DNA from: a virus
Taxonomy: Duplodnaviria > Heunggongvirae > Uroviricota > Caudoviricetes
Direction: 5' to 3' (one strand)
DNA: 35,809 nucleotides
IMG/VR virus record: IMGVR_UViG_2690316210_000007
Span: 1-35,809 of that record
Shown one piece after another: positions 1,884 to 11,602 of this stretch; the stretch's first letter is position 1; every line of letters begins with the position of its first letter. A program made the position numbers and the translations under genes. The notes beneath the pieces are model-generated. The model made no database searches. It was given only the letters and a program-made list of their open reading frames with translations, and was not told the DNA's origin.

Positions 1884-1959
1884 GGCCCTTTAGCTCAGTG
1901 GTGAGAGCGAGCGACTCATAATCGCCAGGTCGCTGGTTCAAATCCAGCAAGGGCCACCA
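1884..1959 (+). tRNA. ileZ: tRNA with CAT anticodon (tRNA-Ile2 lysidine type or tRNA-Met), 76 nt with encoded CCA
   Basis: Cloverleaf read by hand: acceptor GGCCCTT/AAGGGCC, D-stem GCTC/GAGC, anticodon loop CTCATAA (CAT), T-arm GCTGG-TTCAAAT-CCAGC, discriminator A plus CCA. Stx-type lambdoid phages carry ileZ-argN-argO here; the ileZ symbol is by analogy only. Confidence 0.85.
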
Positions 1960-2059
1960 TCACAAACCGCCATTAGCTTATCAGGAAGAGCAGACGACAC
2001 GATAACAGGGTTGTTGGTGCGGGGGCGGGTCCCCGATGGCGGTCCATTATCGGTATTCA

Positions 2060-2136
2060 GCGTTGTTAGCTCAGCCGGACAGAGCAATTGCCTTCTAAGC
2101 AATCGGTCACTGGTTCGAATCCAGTACAACGCGCCA
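2060..2136 (+). tRNA. tRNA-Arg (anticodon TCT), 77 nt with encoded CCA
   Basis: Acceptor GCGTTGT/ACAACGC, D-stem GCTC/GAGC, anticodon stem ATTGC/GCAAT with loop CTTCTAA (TCT), T-arm ACTGG-TTCGAAT-CCAGT, discriminator G plus CCA. Confidence 0.85.
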
Positions 2137-3111: not shown

Positions 3112-4968
3112 ATGGCATTTAAACACTATGACGTGGTCAGGGCGGTATCGCCGTCAGACCTTGCGAAACGACTGACACAAAAACTGAAGGAGGGCTGGCA
3201 GCCGTTTGGTAGTCCGGTGGCCATAACCCCTTATACCCTGATGCAGGCGATTGCAGCAGAAGGTGATGTGGTGGTCAGTGGTGCAACTGAGCCGGATTGG
3301 TACTACGTCATCGTACTGGCCGGGCAGTCCAATGCCATGGCTTACGGTGAAGGGCTTCCGCTGCCGGATTCATACGATGCGCCCCATCCGCGCATTAAGC
3401 AACTGGCCCGTCGTAACACAGTGACTCCCGGTGGTGAAGTATGCGTATTTAACGACATCATTCCTGCTGACCATTGTCTGCATGATGTTCAGGATATGAG
3501 TACGATTAACCATCCCCGGGCTGACCTGAGCAAAGGGCAGTACGGCTGTGTCGGACAGGGCTTACATATTGCCAAAAAACTGCTTCCGTATATCCCTAAT
3601 AACGCGGGGATCCTGCTGGTACCATGCTGTCGTGGTGGTTCGGCATTCACCCAGGGCACGGAGGGGACATTCAGCGAGTCCACGGGGGCCAGTCAGGATT
3701 CGGCTCGCTGGGGAGTGGGTAAGCCGTTATATCAGGATCTGCTTTTCCGCACGAAGGCAGCATTGCAGAAAAACCCGAAAAACGTTTTGCTGGCGATATG
3801 CTGGATGCAGGGGGAATTCGATATGACGAATGCCAGTTACGCCCAGCAGCCAGCAGCATTTCTTGCAATGGTACAGCAGTTCCGTGCTGACCTTGCCGGG
3901 CTGGCGGCGCAGTGTCACGGTGGAAGTCCGGCATCAGTCCCCTGGATTTGTGGCGACACGACATACGCGTGGAAACAAGAACACGGTACGCAATATGAAG
4001 TGGTATATGGTGCATATAAAGGTAAAGAATCCCAGCAGATTTATTTTGTTCCCTTTATGACCGATGGTAGCGGAGTTAATACACCGACAAACAACCCGTC
4101 AGAAGATCCTGATATTGCCGGGTCTGGTTATTACGGTTCGGCATCCCGAACGAACAAAAACTGGGTATCATCAAATCGCCCGACGCATTTCAGCTCATGG
4201 GCGCGTCGTGGCATTATTCCCGATCGTATGGCAACTGCTATTCTGAACGTAGCCGGTCGCACCTTAGCCTTCATTAGTGGTAAGGCACCGGAAATCAAAC
4301 CCTCGCCCGGCGGCGACACTCCATCGGGGCCGTCTGATGGTGACACATCCGTTCGTACAGTCTCCCTGCTGCCGACAGCCGGAGAGGCTGCTGCGCAGGG
4401 CTGGACCATCACCGGCGGCAGTGTTGCGCTGGAAGATGGTGTGTTTAAGGTTACCAAGCAGAGCAATAAAACCTGGTCCCTGATGCATCCGGTGGATGAC
4501 GCAGTCTCCCTGCTGACACGGGGTGGCAGACTGAGCTGTAAGTTTCGACTGTCAGGCGCACTGACCAACAACCAGTTCGGTCTGGGAATTTATCTGTATA
4601 CCGATGTAGCGTTACCTGACGTCGTGGCGATGACCGGGACTGGTAACCCGTTCCTGATGTCGTTCTTCACCCAGACCACAGACGGCAAACTGAATCTGAT
4701 GCATCACAGGAAAGCAGGAAACACAAAGTTGGGCGAGTTCGGGAATTACAGTAACGACTGGCAGACGCTGGAGCTGGTGTTCACCGCCGGCAGTGCCACG
4801 GTTACTCCGAAACTGAATGGAGTGGCTGGCCCGGCATTCCAGGTCATAAAAGACAGTCTGACACTGGGGCTGAATGCGCTGACGCTGACGGATATTACCA
4901 AAAATGCAGCGTATGGCGTTGAGATAGAAAGTCTGGTGCTGGAGATAAATGCACCAGCATCATCATAA
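3112..4968 (+). CDS. nanS-p: Prophage sialate O-acetylesterase (nanS-p-like; SGNH/SASA-type esterase with C-terminal extension)
   Basis: 618-aa ORF with RBS ggagga before ATG 3112. Contains the GQSN esterase motif (VIVLAGQSNAMAYGEG). It sits between the tRNA/stx-equivalent region and the lysis cassette, as nanS-p homologues do in Stx and Stx-like prophages. Confidence 0.7.
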   Translation: MAFKHYDVVRAVSPSDLAKRLTQKLKEGWQPFGSPVAITPYTLMQAIAAEGDVVVSGATEPDWYYVIVLAGQSNAMAYGEGLPLPDSYDAPHPRIKQLARRNTVTPGGEVCVFNDIIPADHCLHDVQDMSTINHPRADLSKGQYGCVGQGLHIAKKLLPYIPNNAGILLVPCCRGGSAFTQGTEGTFSESTGASQDSARWGVGKPLYQDLLFRTKAALQKNPKNVLLAICWMQGEFDMTNASYAQQPAAFLAMVQQFRADLAGLAAQCHGGSPASVPWICGDTTYAWKQEHGTQYEVVYGAYKGKESQQIYFVPFMTDGSGVNTPTNNPSEDPDIAGSGYYGSASRTNKNWVSSNRPTHFSSWARRGIIPDRMATAILNVAGRTLAFISGKAPEIKPSPGGDTPSGPSDGDTSVRTVSLLPTAGEAAAQGWTITGGSVALEDGVFKVTKQSNKTWSLMHPVDDAVSLLTRGGRLSCKFRLSGALTNNQFGLGIYLYTDVALPDVVAMTGTGNPFLMSFFTQTTDGKLNLMHHRKAGNTKLGEFGNYSNDWQTLELVFTAGSATVTPKLNGVAGPAFQVIKDSLTLGLNALTLTDITKNAAYGVEIESLVLEINAPASS

Positions 4969-5708: not shown

Positions 5709-6242
5709 ATGAGCGCAAAAATCAAATACGGCCTGTCAGCTGCTGTTCTGGCGCTGATTGCTGCAGGCGCGTCTGCTCCTCAAATACTTGACCAGTTTCT
5801 GGATGAAAAAGAGGGTAACCACACTACGGCATACCGCGATGGTTCCGGTATATGGACCATCTGTCGTGGTGCCACAATGGTGGATGGTAAGCCCGTCATA
5901 CCGGGAATGAAGCTGTCGAAGGAAAAATGCGACCAGGTTAACGCTATTGAACGTGATAAGGCGCTGGCATGGGTGGAGCGCAATATTAAAGTACCACTGA
6001 CCGAACCACAGAAAGCGGGTATAGCGTCATTATGTCCCTATAACATTGGCCCCGGTAAGTGTTTCCCGTCGACGTTTTATAAGCGGCTGAATGCCGGTGA
6101 TCGTAAGGGCGCATGCGAGGCGATTCGCTGGTGGATAAAAGATGGTGGGCGCGATTGCCGCATACGTTCAAATAACTGCTATGGACAGGTTATTCGTCGT
6201 GACCAGGAAAGCGCATTAGCCTGTTGGGGGATAGATCAGTGA
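5709..6242 (+). CDS. R: SAR endolysin (T4-lysozyme-type muramidase, phage-21 R-like)
   Basis: N-terminal signal-anchor-release segment ([17 protein letters not shown]) followed by a catalytic E...D...T arrangement ([22 protein letters not shown]). Paired with a pinholin upstream, the canonical pinholin/SAR-endolysin system. Confidence 0.85.
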
Positions 6243-6697
6243 GCAGAGTCGCAGCGATTATTTATACTCTGGTTATCTGCACCATCGTCTGCCTGTCATG
6301 GGCTGTTAATCATTACCGCGATAACGCCATTACCTACAAAGCCCAGCGCGACAAAAATGCCAGAGAACTGAAGCTGGCGAACGTGGCAATTACTGACATG
6401 CAGATGCGTCAGCGTGATGTAGCAGAACTCGACGCCAGATACACAAAGGAGCTTGCTGATGCTAACGCGACTATCGAAAGTCTTCGTGCTGATGTTTCTG
6501 CTGGGCGTAAGCGCCTGCAAGTCGCCGCCACCTGTGCAAAGTCAACGACCGGAGCCAGCGGCATGGGCGATGGAGAAAGCCCAGGACTTACAGCAGATGC
6601 TGAACTCAATTATTACCGTCTCCGAAGTGGAATCGACAAGTTAACCGCTCAGGTCAACTACCTGCAGGAGTACATCAGGACGCAGTGCTTAAAATAA
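6239..6697 (+). CDS. Rz: Rz i-spanin
   Basis: GTG start overlapping the R stop (caGTGAgc). [61 protein letters not shown]... is near-identical to recalled lambda Rz ([61 protein letters not shown]...). Confidence 0.85.
6453..6644 (+). CDS. Rz1: Rz1 o-spanin lipoprotein, embedded in the +1 frame of Rz
   Basis: 63-aa ORF inside Rz with lipobox LLGVSAC and a proline-rich mature region ([16 protein letters not shown]), as in lambda Rz1. Confidence 0.75.
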
Positions 6698-6737
6698 TTT
6701 TAATTTCACTGAAATTTAATACGTGACTTTCAGGAAA

Positions 6738-6764
6738 ATGCCTCGCAGATGCGGGGCATTTTTG
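6738..6764 (+). terminator. Intrinsic terminator downstream of Rz/Rz1
   Basis: 9-bp stem atgcctcgc/gcggggcat (one G-U pair), loop agat, followed by TTTTT. Confidence 0.45.
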
Positions 6765-7113
6765 TACAGGTATTTCACCGCGCACCGCAGCGCACTCAAC
6801 CACGTCGAACCAAACCCTTTGGAATGAGCCTTTGAGTAGTCAGTTAGTGCTGGTGAGCCTTGACGGGCTGATCTCCTATGCAGCAAAGGTTCATCTCAAA
6901 GTAAGACGAACGCTATGACAAACCAAGATTCTATAGACCTATCTGATCTTCGTGGAATGGTCATTTTTCCAGACAAAAGGTAATCACCATAGTCGTATGG
7001 CTATGAATCTTGTTGCTGCAGATAAGCATTTTGTGATTGAAGTGGTCAAATCTCTCAAATGCAGTAAAATGCAGTGCGCTATAATTCAATAACGGAGGGA
7101 GTAAGGAGAAGTC

Positions 7114-7734
7114 ATGAAAGATCAAGATGTTAGGTTCGCGGTGCATCATAAGCTTTTGAAAGAATCGCATTTAGATCCAGACTGCCTTGTGGTCGATGAA
7201 TTTTCCATATCCCTTGGCGCCAGTAGAGCAGACATTGCTGTAATAAATGGTGTTATACACGGGTACGAGCTCAAAAGTGAATATGACTCTTTGGAGCGTT
7301 TGCCTCTTCAAATCAAGCATTATTCTTCTGTAATGGACAAGGTTACTCTTGTCGTAGCTGAGAAACACCTTGAGGGAGCATTAAAGTTAATCCCAGGTTG
7401 GTGGGGCGTTAAAACGGTTTCTGTTGGGCCAAAAGGCGCCATTCTTATAAAGCACATGCGTGGAGAAAAGCTTAATCGAAACCATGACACATTGATGCTC
7501 GCTCAATTGCTTTGGAAAGATGAATGTATCGACGTACTTGAACGATGGGGCTATTCCAAAGGAATCAAAAGCAAGCCCCGATTTGAGTTATGGAATATTA
7601 TTGCGGAAAATATTCCAATAGCGAATCTCAGGCCTGAAGTCAGAACAGCCTTAAAGAAACGCGTAGGCTGGAAAGTTAAGGCTTGGCAGGCTGAGTCTGC
7701 GCCAACCAATAAAGCTGTCTCACGACTAACGTAA
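7114..7734 (+). CDS. Hypothetical protein (206 aa) of the AT-rich cargo island; candidate PD-(D/E)xK-type nuclease
   Basis: RBS aaggag 6 nt before ATG 7114; TATAAT at 7080-7085 upstream. Translation shows an ordered E...hhhhD...hhh(E)hK pattern (LLKESHL..CLVVDEF..ADIAVINGVIHGYELKSE). No similarity to lambda late proteins. Visibly lower GC than the flanking phage backbone. Confidence 0.55.
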   Translation: MKDQDVRFAVHHKLLKESHLDPDCLVVDEFSISLGASRADIAVINGVIHGYELKSEYDSLERLPLQIKHYSSVMDKVTLVVAEKHLEGALKLIPGWWGVKTVSVGPKGAILIKHMRGEKLNRNHDTLMLAQLLWKDECIDVLERWGYSKGIKSKPRFELWNIIAENIPIANLRPEVRTALKKRVGWKVKAWQAESAPTNKAVSRLT

Positions 7735-8743
7735 TATGGTGCGTATGTGCAACTTTACGCCATTCTTTAGAGCCGCCAGATTTGTTAGCGCCTAATGATC
7801 TTTGGTAAATGTAATCATCCCCCCAACTAAATTTGGAGCCAAAGACTTGATACTCTGGCGAACTAACAAGGGTAGTACATAAGTTTTTAGTTTGGCCCCA
7901 TCCATTTCCTTTAACTGCGGTACCTTTTACAAAGATCCATGAGGTATCGTTCGAATATCTCACTGAGACATACTGAGACATGAAGCGTGGGTCTACGCTC
8001 GTAATGGTAGAGCTAGCGGTGGGATAATCACTAAAACTTGGCGTTCTTCCATTGCTAAAATTCTGTACTACGTACATCCAAAGATCGTATTCATGGCGCG
8101 GAATATGATGAACTTGATGTTGCGGTATCCCTGCCTGTGATGCCGGGTATGCGGTTGAAGATAAAATCAAGTTTCTCCACGGAGCTTGGCCTGATAATGT
8201 GTTGACCATGCTTAATGCTTGTTGTTTTAAACTATCAGTTGCGTTTTGAATATCTCCAAAATCAATGATTACATCAATTAAACTAGGATGAATATTTAAG
8301 TGGTTAACCAGACTTGTGAATTGGTGCCATGTCTGGGGGGTGATAGATATAGCGAGCCCATTGATTAAGTTGCGTTGAACAGCATGTATATAGTTTGTTG
8401 AATATGCGGGAGAAACAACAGGGATAATTTCCTTACCATTTACTCTAGCATCTTGGATACACATATCTAGAGGATGATGGCGGCTCGAACCATGTTTATC
8501 TAAATATTTAACATCCAGCAAAACAGGACGATTGGCTTTCCAGGATGCCGCAAGGTTAATACCGAAGTCAGATAAGTAAGAACTCAAATTCTTCTTGTAG
8601 CATTCGTTTTCATAATCCCAGTCTATGTCTGGAATGGTAATGATCGGAGTAAAACCAGAGAGCGTAGTTTGATCTAAAAGCATCAGAGATTCATATTCAG
8701 CAGGCTTCCATTTCAGCTGTGGATAATATTGATGTTGACTCAT
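7676..8743 (-). CDS. Hypothetical protein (355 aa) of the AT-rich cargo island, convergent with the 206-aa ORF
   Basis: Minus-strand ORF with RBS AAGGAG 5 nt before its ATG (8741-8743). Alternating short hydrophobic strands (VLLDVKYL, IIPVVSP, GLAISIT, IDVIIDFGDI, NLILSST) suggest an alpha/beta fold. No recognised catalytic motif and no match to lambda proteins. Its 3' end overlaps the 3' end of the + ORF by 59 bp. Confidence 0.55.
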   Translation of the reverse strand: MSQHQYYPQLKWKPAEYESLMLLDQTTLSGFTPIITIPDIDWDYENECYKKNLSSYLSDFGINLAASWKANRPVLLDVKYLDKHGSSRHHPLDMCIQDARVNGKEIIPVVSPAYSTNYIHAVQRNLINGLAISITPQTWHQFTSLVNHLNIHPSLIDVIIDFGDIQNATDSLKQQALSMVNTLSGQAPWRNLILSSTAYPASQAGIPQHQVHHIPRHEYDLWMYVVQNFSNGRTPSFSDYPTASSTITSVDPRFMSQYVSVRYSNDTSWIFVKGTAVKGNGWGQTKNLCTTLVSSPEYQVFGSKFSWGDDYIYQRSLGANKSGGSKEWRKVAHTHHITLVVRQLYWLAQTQPAKP

Positions 8744-8966
8744 TAAAACTCCTTAAAATCTTTACTTATCCTAAGTATAGTGTTATGGCGTAACGCCAAT
8801 TGTTTTTATACACTTGAAAACATTGGGAAAAGTTGAGCTATATCTAAATTTACAAAATTGGATGTTATAGAAATCGAGGTTTCAACTAGGCATGGAACTG
8901 CAAAATTTTTAATGCCTGCACGCGAAAGTCGTTGGCGGGTCCTTTCCGGTGATCCAGATCGTTACG

Positions 8967-8978
8967 GGGCGGCGACCT
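8967..8978 (+). other. cos: cos site: cosN 12-nt cohesive-end sequence (cosB region extends rightwards to roughly 9100)
   Basis: GGGCGGCGACCT followed by CGCGGTTTTTCACTATTTATGAAAATTTT, matching the recalled lambda left end GGGCGGCGACCTCGCGGGTTTTCGCTATTTATGAAAATTTTCC; Nu1 follows about 180 bp downstream. Confidence 0.85.
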
Positions 8979-9153
8979 CGCGGTTTTTCACTATTTATGA
9001 AAATTTTTCAGGGAAAATCGTGTCGGTACTTCTCGAATATAACTTTTTGTTTTTTTTAATATTGCATTCATAAATGTCCGACATGAAAGTGTCCGAAAAT
9101 GCCTTTTTCTGGCGTTTTCATGTCGGGCCTTGTATTTGATAATGGGTTGTTCT

Positions 9154-9702
9154 ATGAAGGTTAATAAAAAGAGGCTTGCCGAAATTTTTAACGTGGACCC
9201 GCGGACGATTGAACGCTGGCAGTCTCAGGGGCTCCCTTGCGTCTCCAAAGGCAGTAAGGGCATTGAATCTGTATTTGATACTGCCATGGCAATTCAGTGG
9301 TATGCGCAGAGGGAAACTGATATCGAAAACGAAAAGCTCCGCAAAGAACTGGCCGATTTGCGTGCGGCAGCGGAGTCAGATTTACAACCCGGCACCATTG
9401 ACTATGAACGCTACCGGCTCACAAAAGCGCAGGCAGATGCGCAGGAACTGAAAAATGCCCGTGAAGACGGAGTGGTGCTGGAAACTGAACTGTTTACCTT
9501 CATTCTGCAACGTGTGGCACAGGAGATTTCGGGGATACTTGTGCGTGTGCCGTTGACATTACAGCGTAAATATCCGGACATTTCACCATCACACCTTGAT
9601 GTGGTGAAAACTGAAATCGCGAAAGCCTCCAATGTTGCAGCTAAGGCCGGTGAAAACGTGGGCGGGTGGATCGATGATTTCAGACGCACAGAAGGCAGCT
9701 AA
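9154..9702 (+). CDS. nu1: Terminase small subunit Nu1
   Basis: [28 protein letters not shown]... versus recalled lambda Nu1 MEVNKKQLADIFGASIRTIQNWQEQGMP...; conserved ..[33 protein letters not shown].. throughout. The ORF-track start at 9130 is a TTG upstream extension. Confidence 0.9.
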
Positions 9703-11602
9703 TGCAGCCGGTGCGATAGCTACAGGGCTTTTATCTCTCATTATTCCTGTTCCACTGACGACAGTTCAGTGGGCCAATAAACATTATTACCTTCCTAAAG
9801 AGTCGTCTTATACCCCGGGGCGGTGGGAAACACTGCCGTTTCAGGTTGGCATCATGAACTGTATGGGCAACGATTTGATTCGCACTGTTAACCTGATTAA
9901 ATCTGCCCGTGTTGGTTATACAAAGATGTTGCTGGGAGTGGAGGCTTATTTTATTGAGCATAAATCACGCAACAGCCTTCTTTTTCAGCCCACGGACTCA
10001 GCTGCTGAAGATTTTATGAAATCTCATGTTGAGCCAACGATAAGGGATGTTCCTGCATTGCTGGAGCTGGCTCCATGGTTCGGAAGAAAACACCGCGATA
10101 ATACGCTCACCCTGAAGCGTTTTTCCTCCGGTGTGGGTTTCTGGTGTCTGGGGGGAGCGGCAGCAAAAAACTACCGTGAAAAATCCGTGGATGTGGTTTG
10201 TTATGACGAGCTTTCCTCGTTCGAACCGGATGTTGAAAAAGAGGGTTCGCCAACCCTGCTGGGGGATAAACGTATTGAGGGCTCTGTATGGCCAAAATCC
10301 ATTCGCGGCTCGACGCCTAAAATCAAAGGCTCCTGCCAGATCGAAAAAGCCGCTAACGAGTCGGCACATTTCATGCGTTTTTATGTGCCCTGTCCGCACT
10401 GTGGGGAGGAGCAGTATCTGAAATTTGGCGATGATGCCTCGCCTTTCGGTCTTAAGTGGGAGAAGAATAAGCCAGAAAGTGTTTTCTACCTTTGTGAGCA
10501 TCATGGCTGTGTGATCCATCAGTCTGAGCTTGACCAGAGTAACGGGCGGTGGATCTGTGAAAACACGGGCATGTGGACTCGTGACGGTCTGACATTTTTC
10601 AGCGCCGCGGATAATGAAATTCCGCCGCCGCGCTCCATCACATTCCATATCTGGACGGCGTACAGTCCGTTCACCACCTGGGTACAGATTGTCTATGACT
10701 GGCTGGATGCACTGAAAGATCCCAACGGCCTGAAAACCTTTGTGAACACCACGCTGGGCGAGACCTGGGAAGAGGCCGTGGGCGAAAAACTCGATCACCA
10801 GGTGCTGATGGATAAGGTTGTGCGTTACACGGCTGCGGTGCCTTCCCGGGTGGTTTATCTGACGGCGGGCATTGACTCGCAGCGAAACCGTTTTGAGATG
10901 TATGTCTGGGGATGGGCTCCGGGAGAGGAAGCCTTTCTGGTGGATAAAATCATCATTATGGGGCGTCCCGATGAGGAAGAGACGCTGTTACGTGTGGATG
11001 TGGCGATCAACAAAAAATACCGCCATGCAGACGGAACCGAAATGACCATTTCCCGTGTCTGCTGGGACACCGGGGGGATCGATGGCGAAATTGTCTATCA
11101 GAGGTCAAAAAAACACGGTGTTTTCCGGGTGCTGCCGGTAAAAGGTGCATCTGTTTATGGCAAGCCGGTGATCACCATGCCAAAAACCCGCAATCAGCGG
11201 GGCGTGTATCTGTGCGAAGTGGGGACGGACACCGCAAAAGAAATTCTCTATGCCCGTATGAAAGCCGATCCCACGCCTGCGGATGAAGCCACGTCGTATG
11301 CCATCCGTTTTCCTGATGATCCGGAGATTTTTTCGCAGACAGAGGCGCAGCAACTGGTGGCGGAAGAGCTTGTGGAGAAGTGGGAAAAAGGAAAGATGCG
11401 TCTGCTGTGGGATAACAAAAAGCGGCGTAACGAAGCGCTGGACTGCCTGGTGTATGCCTACGCGGCATTACGTGTGTCCGTGCAACGCTGGCAGCTTGAT
11501 CTGGCTGTACTGGCAAAATCCCGGGAAGAAGAGACGACCCGGCCAACCCTTAAAGAACTGGCAGCGAAGCTGTCCGGAGGAGTGAATGGTTACAGTCGCT
11601 GA
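9674..11602 (+). CDS. A: Terminase large subunit gpA
   Basis: Strong similarity along the whole length to recalled lambda gpA (..[24 protein letters not shown].., ..[14 protein letters not shown].., ..[16 protein letters not shown].., ..[10 protein letters not shown]..). ATG 9674 overlaps the end of nu1; the ORF-track start at 9632 is an alternative. Confidence 0.9.

What the first reader, a model, noticed from the sequence alone, without database searches (positions are those of the whole stretch)
7676..8743. 355-aa minus-strand cargo protein with no recognisable motif
Large ORF with a canonical RBS and low GC. The sequence alternates short hydrophobic strands with polar segments, suggesting an alpha/beta fold. 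It has no signal peptide, TM helix, Walker or HxH motif that I can identify. It may be a sensor or partner of the putative nuclease.
Basis: seen in the sequence. Interest (0 to 1): 0.6.

Follow-up and report, generated by a model that had tools for sequence, protein, structure and literature searches.

The report
Prophage beta/cII defence-like gene pair
The 355-aa ORF is a real, conserved gene of the known but mechanistically unsolved phage "beta protein" family, encoded tail-to-tail with a nuclease gene. Together they form a gop-less two-gene version of the phage P4 gop-beta-cII anti-phage module, carried as cargo in a lambda-like prophage.

Summary
The ORF at 7676-8743(-) is real: it has an AAGGAG RBS, GC of 0.41 against 0.54 for the window, and dN/dS of about 0.05-0.08. 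It is not motif-less. It matches Pfam PF14350 Beta_protein over its full length (E=7e-56), and RefSeq calls it "beta family protein". AlphaFold gives a confident TIM barrel (pLDDT 93) with an invariant polar pocket, and no specific enzyme superfamily stands out.

The 206-aa neighbour is an sce7726/P4-cII family protein with a PD-(D/E)xK nuclease fold and an E29/D40/E52-x-K54 motif.

In all 48 loci where both genes could be seen (33 distinct beta sequences, Proteobacteria to actinophages), the two genes are convergent. Their 3' ends usually overlap. P4's gop has no homologue in any other locus, so beta+cII is the conserved core of gop-beta-cII and PD-lambda-2, both experimentally shown anti-phage systems.

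Of about 93 of the 127 E. coli copies inspected, beta is knocked out six times independently and cII never. Beta is therefore not an essential antitoxin for cII.

Published data show that beta is positively required for killing or defence. The mechanism remains inferred. I favour an antagonistic pair: beta is the active, lysogen-expressed component and cII is its nuclease antagonist or guard.

Verdict: a new variant of a known kind, of moderate interest.

The parts
7676..8743 (-). beta gene: 355-aa Beta_protein (PF14350) family protein with a predicted TIM barrel
   Evidence: ORF. Pfam PF14350 E=7e-56, profile 1-342/342. PADLOC PD-Lambda-2_C 6e-32 and beta 6.8e-10. PHROG 9159. AF2 pLDDT 93.4. 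TIM-barrel matches. All family-invariant residues are present: Y6, P33, D161, P200, D239, H336.
8749..8754 (-). Shine-Dalgarno AAGGAG of beta, 5 nt upstream of the ATG at 8743
   Evidence: Read directly from the sequence.
7114..7734 (+). cII-like partner gene: 206-aa sce7726 / Phage_P4_cII family protein, a PD-(D/E)xK nuclease fold plus a C-terminal helical (SAP-like) domain
7103..7108 (+). Shine-Dalgarno AAGGAG of cII, 5 nt upstream of the ATG at 7114
   Evidence: Read directly from the sequence.
7676..7734 (.). 59-bp tail-to-tail overlap of the two convergent coding regions, with no terminator inside
   Evidence: Coordinates. No terminator-like site. No unusual RNA structure, z +1.2 / -0.7. 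3' overlap is found in 28 of 32 distinct loci, median 41 bp.
7043..7070 (+). Candidate sigma-70 promoter for cII (TGGTCA-16-TAAAAT); weak evidence
   Evidence: Consensus scan, 9 of 12 matches. The number of such sites in the region is not above the shuffled expectation.
8744..8929 (-). Upstream (presumed promoter) region of beta, up to the phage-21-like cos region; in one E. coli strain IS2 is inserted at 8882-8890
   Evidence: Sequence. IS2 insertion in L004. No confident promoter was called.

Best explanation
SHOWN
- The ORF encodes a Beta_protein-family TIM-barrel protein.
- With the convergent, 3'-overlapping cII/sce7726 nuclease gene it forms a mobile two-gene cassette.
- This cassette is the conserved core of the experimentally validated anti-phage systems gop-beta-cII (P4) and PD-lambda-2.
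- Here it is a moron between the lysis genes and cos of a lambdoid prophage.

INFERRED: the module is a prophage-borne superinfection-exclusion / abortive-infection device, and the two products act antagonistically rather than as a co-expressed complex.
- Beta is made in the lysogen from its own promoter, antisense to phage late transcription.
- Beta is the positively acting, costly component. It is either an enzyme or a ligand-triggered switch that uses the conserved polar pocket on the barrel.
- cII is an active DNA nuclease that restrains or guards beta.
- cII lies in sense with the late operon. When the resident phage goes lytic, read-through transcription raises cII and silences beta by convergent transcription, which spares the resident phage.
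- An incoming phage lacks this cover, or inhibits cII with an anti-nuclease such as the orf184 trigger of the P4 system. It then unleashes beta-dependent killing or blocking.
For: Identity: Pfam, PADLOC, PHROG and NCBIfam hits; RefSeq names.

Fold and pocket: a confident TIM barrel. Invariant E16, D77, D161, R216, D239, Y240, D251, R262, Y263, D309 and H335/H336 lie mostly at the C-terminal ends of strands.

Nuclease partner.

Core-pair status:
- Both genes are convergent in 48 of 48 loci (33 distinct betas), with a median 41-bp overlap.
- The reciprocal test, starting from cII relatives, also found beta.
- gop has no homologue in any locus other than P4.
- A PD-lambda-2-type locus also carries cII.

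Defence role of relatives:
- gop-beta-cII protects against lambda and P1.
- PD-lambda-2C is required for defence but not for neutralising the toxin.

Beta acts positively and cII is not needed for killing:
- Tn5 suppressors of orf184-triggered death map to beta and gop only.
- The PD-lambda-2 clone has no room for a complete cII.

Asymmetry between the two genes:
- There are 6 independent beta knock-outs plus 1 upstream IS, and 0 cII knock-outs, among about 93 E. coli copies.
- Beta is never found without cII, whereas cII-like genes occur alone in Mx4 and Edson.

Expression logic:
- cII is in sense and beta antisense to lytic operons in E. coli, Cronobacter, Klebsiella and Yersinia prophages and in Rac-SA53.
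- Beta lies directly downstream of a CI-type repressor (the lambda rex position) in two lineages whose betas are only 28% identical.
- There is no terminator in the overlap.

From naming convention only (not verified here): P4 cII was named for a clear-plaque phenotype. That is what loss of an antagonist of a killing module would give.
Against: - No experiment exists on this two-gene form.
- No toxicity, expression or interaction data could be obtained here.
- The knock-out asymmetry is statistically weak: (1068/1689)^6 = 0.064 if insertions were random by gene length.
- Ghisotti 1990, as cited, reported that gop is toxic without beta. That makes beta look like an antitoxin in P4, the opposite sign.
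- An invariant nuclease active site is more naturally that of an executioner than of an antidote.
- PD-lambda-2 cells tolerate beta without cII, so cII is not a universally required antidote.
- TIM-barrel toxins or effectors are rare in known defence systems.
- No promoter for beta could be called confidently.
- In the Acinetobacter locus cII is not in sense with a lytic operon.
Confidence: 0.35

Rival explanations
1. Cooperative sensor-effector pair. Beta is a sensor or activator that binds a phage protein or a small molecule in its barrel pocket. It then switches on the cII PD-(D/E)xK nuclease, which degrades phage and/or host DNA. In P4 and PD-lambda-2 the same sensor is wired to extra effectors (Gop; HigB/Xre-peptidase).
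For: - Nucleases are the commonest defence effectors, and cII has an invariant catalytic motif and a basic, DNA-binding-like C-terminal domain.
- Beta is required for defence or killing in both studied relatives, and a phage protein triggers the P4 system.
- Co-occurrence is strict.
- Loss of beta is tolerated, as expected for an activator.
Against: - Complex-forming sensor/effector pairs are normally co-transcribed. Here the genes are convergent in 48 of 48 loci, with colliding transcripts.
- cII is not a suppressor hit in P4 and is absent from the functional PD-lambda-2 clone.
- cII knock-outs should be as frequent as beta knock-outs, yet the count is 0 against 6-7.
- cII is positioned to be highly expressed in the resident phage's own lytic cycle.
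Confidence: 0.28
2. Not immunity. The pair serves phage DNA metabolism, repair or lysogeny control, for example a structure-specific MmcB-like nuclease plus a TIM-barrel DNA- or nucleotide-modifying enzyme. The defence phenotypes of relatives come from their add-on genes.
For: - cII-like genes sit inside ordinary co-directional operons of lytic phages (Mx4, Edson).
- The partner's top structural match is 3dnx (SPO1766), and one source labels a family member 'MmcB-like DNA repair protein'.
- P4 cII was named as a lysogeny (clear-plaque) gene (naming convention only).
Against: - Beta itself is required for defence or killing in PD-lambda-2 and P4.
- The cassette has moron-like low GC and sits at variable insertion sites: lysis-terminase, nin, the rex position, and next to integrase.
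- It is frequently lost in E. coli.
Confidence: 0.12
3. Classical toxin-antitoxin or restriction-modification logic with beta as the protective partner. Beta would neutralise the cII nuclease or modify DNA against it, so that loss of beta kills.
For: - Published descriptions call beta 'a P4 phage antitoxin'.
- Convergent gene pairs are common in R-M systems (general knowledge).
Against: - Six independent natural beta knock-outs coexist with a full-length cII carrying 0-2 substitutions.
- Tn5 insertions in beta rescue cells rather than kill them.
- PD-lambda-2C is not needed to neutralise toxicity.
Confidence: 0.05

Closest known systems
Satellite phage P4 gop-beta-cII (DefenseFinder/PADLOC 'gop_beta_cll'; Rousset 2022, PMC9122126; Ghisotti 1990)
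   Same: - Beta (355 aa in both) and cII are homologous: 20% and 27% identity, with the PADLOC 'beta' and 'cll' models hit.
- The tail-to-tail convergent layout is the same.
- Both are non-essential cargo next to a cos site on a mobile element.
   Different: - There is no gop gene or homologue.
- The host element is a lambdoid prophage, between Rz and cos, not a P4 satellite.
- The ORFs overlap by 59 bp, instead of a 27-bp gap with an annotated terminator.
- cII is 206 aa rather than 264 aa.
- Anti-phage activity is untested.
PD-lambda-2 (Vassallo 2022, PMC9519451)
   Same: - Component C belongs to the same Beta_protein family: PADLOC PD-Lambda-2_C 6e-32 for the window protein, and all 134 family members sampled hit these models.
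- C is required for defence.
   Different: - The HigB-like A and Xre-M78-peptidase B genes are absent here.
- PD-lambda-2 was defined without cII, although a PD-lambda-2-type viral locus, L026, does carry a convergent cII.
NCBIfam sce7725 / sce7726 family proteins
   Same: - The partner is a bona fide sce7726 family member, 184 bits against a cut-off of 70.
- The consecutive locus numbers in the two family names suggest an adjacent gene pair in the genome they are named after. This is my inference from the names, not something tested here.
   Different: - The window beta does not hit sce7725_fam.
- Only 1 of 134 beta-family members does, and only weakly (E 8.7e-4). sce7725 is therefore at best a distant branch.
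Lambda rexAB / bor-type lysogen-expressed morons (functional analogy only)
   Same: - Cargo transcribed against, or outside, the lytic operons.
- It occupies the same sites as bor (after Rz) and rex (downstream of cI).
   Different: - No sequence or fold relationship.
- Expression in the lysogen is inferred, not shown.
PDB 3dnx (SPO1766, protein of unknown function) and other PD-(D/E)xK nucleases, including the MmcB-like label one source gives a family member (for the partner protein)
   Different: - cII has an extra C-terminal helical domain (aa 126-182).
- It is tied to beta.
- No repair role is known.

Membership tests
Pfam PF14350 Beta_protein | Full-length match to the family HMM above the gathering threshold | tested here: met
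   190.6 bits against a cut-off of 27, E=7e-56, profile 1-342/342.
Pfam PF14350 Beta_protein | Family-invariant residues present | tested here: met
   Y6, P33, D161, P200, D239 and H336 are present, as are nearly all residues conserved at 90% or more. The exception is R133, which is S in this clade.
P4 gop-beta-cII defence system | beta homologue | tested here: met
   PADLOC 'beta' E=6.8e-10 over the full length; it aligns with P4 beta at 20% identity.
P4 gop-beta-cII defence system | cII homologue convergent to beta | tested here: met
   PADLOC 'cll' 3.8e-31; tblastn to P4 cII at 27% identity, E 5e-12; convergent layout as in P4.
P4 gop-beta-cII defence system | gop gene upstream of and co-transcribed with beta | tested here: not met
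   There is no same-strand ORF of at least 50 aa in 8744-9130. gop has no homologue in the window or in any non-P4 locus.
P4 gop-beta-cII defence system | Protection against phages (lambda, P1) / trigger-induced cell death | not testable with these tools
   Shown only for the P4-type three-gene locus.
PD-lambda-2 | Component C (beta-like) | tested here: met
   PDLC03984 at 6e-32, covering aa 141-344 only; PDLC03983 at 2e-25.
PD-lambda-2 | Components A (HigB-like) and B (Xre-HTH + M78 peptidase) upstream of C | tested here: not met
   No such ORFs upstream of beta. By contrast, locus L026 has B at E 6e-80.
NCBIfam sce7726 family (partner gene) | Score above the curated cut-off | tested here: met
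   184.1 bits against 70.
NCBIfam sce7725 family | Match of the 355-aa protein to NF033831 | tested here: not met
   No hit at E<=1. Only 1 of 134 family members hits, at E 8.7e-4.
TIM-barrel (beta/alpha)8 fold | Eight-fold beta/alpha barrel in a confident model, with structural matches to TIM barrels | tested here: met
Type II toxin-antitoxin with beta as antitoxin / R-M with beta as protective modifier | Loss of the protective gene is not tolerated while the toxin or nuclease gene is intact | tested here: not met
   Six independent beta knock-outs coexist with an intact 206-aa cII.
PD-(D/E)xK nuclease superfamily (partner gene) | Restriction-endonuclease-like fold with a D...(D/E)xK catalytic motif | tested here: met

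The most novel reading that the evidence does not exclude
Beta-cII is a very widespread, cross-phylum two-gene immune module: 3768 beta clusters at 50% identity. It would represent a new mechanistic class. A TIM-barrel enzyme would be the killing or blocking component. A PD-(D/E)xK nuclease would be its convergently encoded antagonist or guard. Self/non-self discrimination would be achieved by transcriptional collision with the resident phage's own lytic operon. gop and HigB/Xre-peptidase would be lineage-specific add-ons. Solo cII genes in lytic phages would be counter-defence genes.
Probability: 0.2. Interest if true: 0.75.

Novelty: new variant of a known kind. Interest (0 to 1): 0.45.

Why it matters
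Beta_protein is the one component shared by two experimentally validated E. coli anti-phage systems, gop-beta-cII and PD-lambda-2, yet nothing is known about what it does.

This analysis shows three things:
- The universal unit is not either published three-gene system. It is a gop-less, convergent beta + cII-nuclease pair, which neither published three-gene definition fits. Whether PADLOC or DefenseFinder would call it was not tested.
- Beta is a confident TIM barrel with an enzyme-like invariant pocket.
- Natural knock-outs and published transposon data rule out the textbook label 'antitoxin' for beta.

This turns an annotation curiosity into a compact 1.7-kb, directly testable system. It is present in about 2% of complete E. 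coli genomes, including the pathogen 55989.

Tried and rejected
- Sequence search of both proteins, and of the deep beta profile, against PDB sequences found nothing meaningful.
- An Rfam scan of 6000-9800 found no RNA family.
- The promoter/terminator scan was not enriched, gave no confident beta promoter, and found no terminator in the overlap.
- RNA folding of the overlap was unremarkable.
- A search for gop homologues in all loci found none.
- NCBIfam gave no family for beta.
- Literature searches for PF14350, sce7725, Phage_P4_cII and 'beta family protein' found nothing relevant. The sce7726 hits were only genome-annotation mentions.
- Ghisotti 1990 (PMC249035) is not held, so statements about it rest on citations and on recollection.
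- Locus L011 (Bacteroides) from the genome scan was a false positive.
- I rejected the R-M-like and beta-as-antitoxin readings because of the natural beta knock-outs and the Tn5 suppressor data.
- I did not use the metagenome scan or the third homologue search, because co-occurrence was already saturated.
Full report
1. OBSERVATION

The ORF exists exactly as described: 7676..8743 on the minus strand, ATG start, 355 aa. AAGGAG lies 5 nt upstream of the start (8749-8754). The gene has 41% GC, in a 0.40-0.45 GC island inside a 0.52-0.60 GC window.

The window is a lambdoid prophage. The gene order is holin, YdfR, lysozyme and Rz-like lysis protein (to 6697), then the island, then a phage-21-like cos region (8930-9130; 94.6% identity), Nu1-like small terminase, large terminase and portal. 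The island core has no near match among 50,697 deposited phage genomes. It is present at 99.3% identity or more in 127 of 5426 complete E. coli genomes, always chromosomal. One example is the E. coli 55989 prophage, where RefSeq names the two genes 'beta family protein' and 'sce7726 family protein'.

The gene is under strong purifying selection: dN/dS is 0.05-0.08 against 77-78%-identical orthologues from Klebsiella and Edwardsiella, with dS saturated.

There is no TM segment, no Walker A and no CxxC. Two do not hold. An H333-T-H335-H336 motif exists, and the protein is far from motif-less. It matches Pfam PF14350 Beta_protein end to end (E=7e-56), PHROG 9159 (5e-152) and the PADLOC models PD-Lambda-2_C (6e-32) and beta (6.8e-10).

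2. THE PROTEIN

The family is large. There are 3768 representatives at 50% identity, almost all single-domain proteins of 350-370 aa.

A 134-sequence alignment that includes P4 beta (20% identical) leaves these residues conserved:
- Invariant: Y6, P33, D161, P200, D239, H336.
- Conserved at 90% or more: E16, D77, R133, R216, Y240, D251, R262, Y263, Q284, S306, G308, D309, W328, H335.

Most of these lie at the C-terminal ends of the barrel strands in the model's secondary structure. That is where TIM-barrel active sites lie, so I infer an enzyme or ligand-binding pocket. The chemistry is unknown.

3. THE NEIGHBOUR

The 206-aa gene at 7114..7734(+) is an sce7726 family member (NF033832, 184 bits against a cut-off of 70). 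The same family is Pfam PF26915 Phage_P4_cII and the PADLOC 'cll' model. Across 44 homologues E29, D40 and E52-x-K54 are invariant.

4. THE PAIR

- I fetched loci using beta alone as bait: genomes, viral contigs and exact-protein contexts. I scanned them with my own HMMs.
- In 48 of 48 loci with both flanks available, a cII gene lies immediately convergent to beta. These loci hold 33 distinct beta sequences, down to 22% identity.
- The ORFs overlap at their 3' ends in 28 of 32 distinct cases. The median overlap is 41 bp and the range is -27 to +140.
- The same geometry is seen in Gordonia and Mycobacterium phages and in Rac-SA53.
- Starting instead from cII relatives in Acinetobacter, Burkholderia and an enterobacterial primase element also leads to a convergent, overlapping beta.
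- The reverse does not always hold. Myxococcus phage Mx4 and Bacillus phage Edson carry cII-like genes inside ordinary operons, with no beta within 2.5 kb.
- P4 itself has gop-beta rightward and cII leftward, with a 27-bp gap and an annotated terminator.
- gop has no homologue in any other locus.
- One viral locus (L026) has a PD-Lambda-2_B Xre-M78 peptidase translationally coupled upstream of beta, and it still has the convergent cII.

The conserved unit is therefore beta + cII. gop (P4) and HigB/Xre-peptidase (PD-lambda-2) are add-ons upstream of beta.

5. NATURAL VARIATION

I inspected about 93 of the 127 E. coli copies. Beta is inactivated six times independently:

| Lesion | Window position |
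|---|---|
| IS1 | 7878-7886 |
| IS5 | 8445-8448 |
| IS3-family | 8459-8479 |
| IS1 | 8623-8632 |
| 1-bp indel | within beta |
| IS66/IS2 composite | breakpoint at 8017 |

In addition, IS2 sits about 140 bp upstream of the beta ATG in one strain. In all seven strains cII remains a full 206-aa ORF with 0-2 substitutions. No copy with a disrupted cII was seen.

By gene length alone the chance of six hits in beta and none in cII is about 0.064. This is suggestive, not proof. Given the deep conservation, it says instead that beta can be lost while cII is kept. Beta is therefore not an essential antitoxin or protective modifier for the cII nuclease.

6. WHAT IS KNOWN EXPERIMENTALLY ABOUT RELATIVES

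- P4 gop-beta-cII protects against lambda and P1, and was interpreted as a TA-like abortive-infection system (PMC9122126).
- Its toxicity is triggered by a coliphage accessory gene, orf184 (bioRxiv 10.1101/2023.04.06.535777).
- In that study's suppressor screen, Tn5 insertions that rescue cells map to 'protein beta' and 'protein gop', not to cII (Supplementary File 5).
- The cloned PD-lambda-2 fragment leaves only about 390 bp beyond gene C, which is too little for a complete cII.

In both systems beta acts positively. cII is either dispensable for killing or could not be recovered.

7. CONTEXT AND ORIENTATION

- In four different prophage backbones (E. coli, Cronobacter, Klebsiella, Yersinia) the cassette sits between, or inside, the lysis genes and the terminase. 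These backbones have different terminases and lysis genes.
- In all four, cII is in sense with the late operon and beta is antisense.
- In Rac-SA53 the cassette is in the nin region, and cII is again in sense.
- In two lineages whose betas are only 28% identical, beta lies directly downstream of a CI-type HTH-S24 repressor on the same strand. This is the position of lambda rex.
- There is no terminator or stable structure in the overlap, so the two transcripts must collide.

8. MECHANISM (inference)

The strict convergent architecture argues for antagonistic rather than stoichiometric expression. I combine it with the asymmetry (beta is lost and cII kept; beta is never without cII), the positive requirement for beta, and the dispensability of cII for killing.

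My favoured model has confidence 0.35:
- Beta is the lysogen-expressed, active and costly component.
- cII is a genuine nuclease that also restrains or guards beta.
- The resident phage's lytic read-through raises cII and silences beta, which spares the resident phage.
- An invader that lacks this cover, or that inhibits the nuclease, sets beta off.

The main rival, at 0.28, is the conventional reading: beta is the sensor and the cII nuclease is the executioner. It fits the nuclease's invariant active site. It fits the architecture, the Tn data and the PD-lambda-2 clone less well.

A non-defence DNA-metabolism or lysogeny role is given 0.12. The beta-as-antitoxin or R-M reading is given 0.05 and is largely refuted.

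9. COMPARISON AND NOVELTY

The protein is a clear member of PF14350, and its partner is a clear member of sce7726/P4-cII. The locus fails the membership test for gop-beta-cII because it has no gop. It fails the test for PD-lambda-2 because it has no A or B. It is best filed as a two-gene variant, and apparently the ancestral core, of those systems.

I found no paper that describes the two-gene form, the fold of beta, or the universal pairing. That search covers only the held library.

Interest is moderate. A specialist would recognise the family at once. The core-pair result, the TIM-barrel fold and the rejection of the 'antitoxin' label make an unsolved defence component directly testable.

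Noticed in passing
window 6700-6919: This stretch is about 87% identical to the 3' part of the rha gene of P22/BTP1-type Salmonella phages. It is probably a recombination scar marking the left edge of the island.
   Followed up: no
window 8930-9130: This stretch is 94.6% identical to the phage 21 cos / terminase-binding / IHF region. The cargo island therefore abuts cos, as the P4 defence hotspot does.
   Followed up: partly
window 1884-2136: ARAGORN finds tRNA-Met(cat) and tRNA-Arg(tct). RefSeq annotates three tRNAs (Ile, Arg, Arg) at the corresponding place in E. coli 55989. The middle one (about window 1969-2045) was not called here.
   Followed up: no
window 3112-4968 (+): A 618-aa ORF lies upstream of the holin. 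It is annotated DUF6645 in one RefSeq genome and 'SASA family carbohydrate esterase' in another, and is a large late-region cargo gene.
   Followed up: no
window 7676-7734 / cII aa 188-206: The window's cII carries a 16-aa disordered C-terminal extension (pLDDT<50) that most orthologues (190 aa) lack. It lengthens the overlap with beta from 11 bp to 59 bp and is probably a recent stop-codon shift.
   Followed up: partly
L026:2727-5654: This viral locus is of PD-lambda-2 type: an Xre-M78 peptidase (PD-Lambda-2_B, E 6e-80) overlaps the beta start by 4 bp. It also has a convergent cII gene, which is not part of the published PD-lambda-2 definition.
   Followed up: partly
L055/L056:5152-8318: In a Yersinia prophage the beta/cII cassette is inserted inside the lysis cassette, between the endolysin and the spanin-like genes. 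Late transcription must cross it.
   Followed up: no
L042:2492-3061 and L043:2435-3028: Solo cII-like nuclease genes, with no beta within 2.5 kb, sit inside co-directional operons of Myxococcus phage Mx4 and Bacillus jumbo phage Edson. They could be ordinary nucleases or counter-defence genes.
   Followed up: partly
L002, L003, L004, L037-L040 (E. coli genomes): Five different IS types (IS1 twice, IS5, an IS3-family element, IS2, IS66) have landed in or just upstream of beta in different strains. This 1.5-kb AT-rich stretch may simply be an IS hotspot.
   Followed up: yes
window 8858-9073 (+): A 71-aa TTG-start ORF overlaps the cos region and has no family hit. It is probably not a gene.
   Followed up: no
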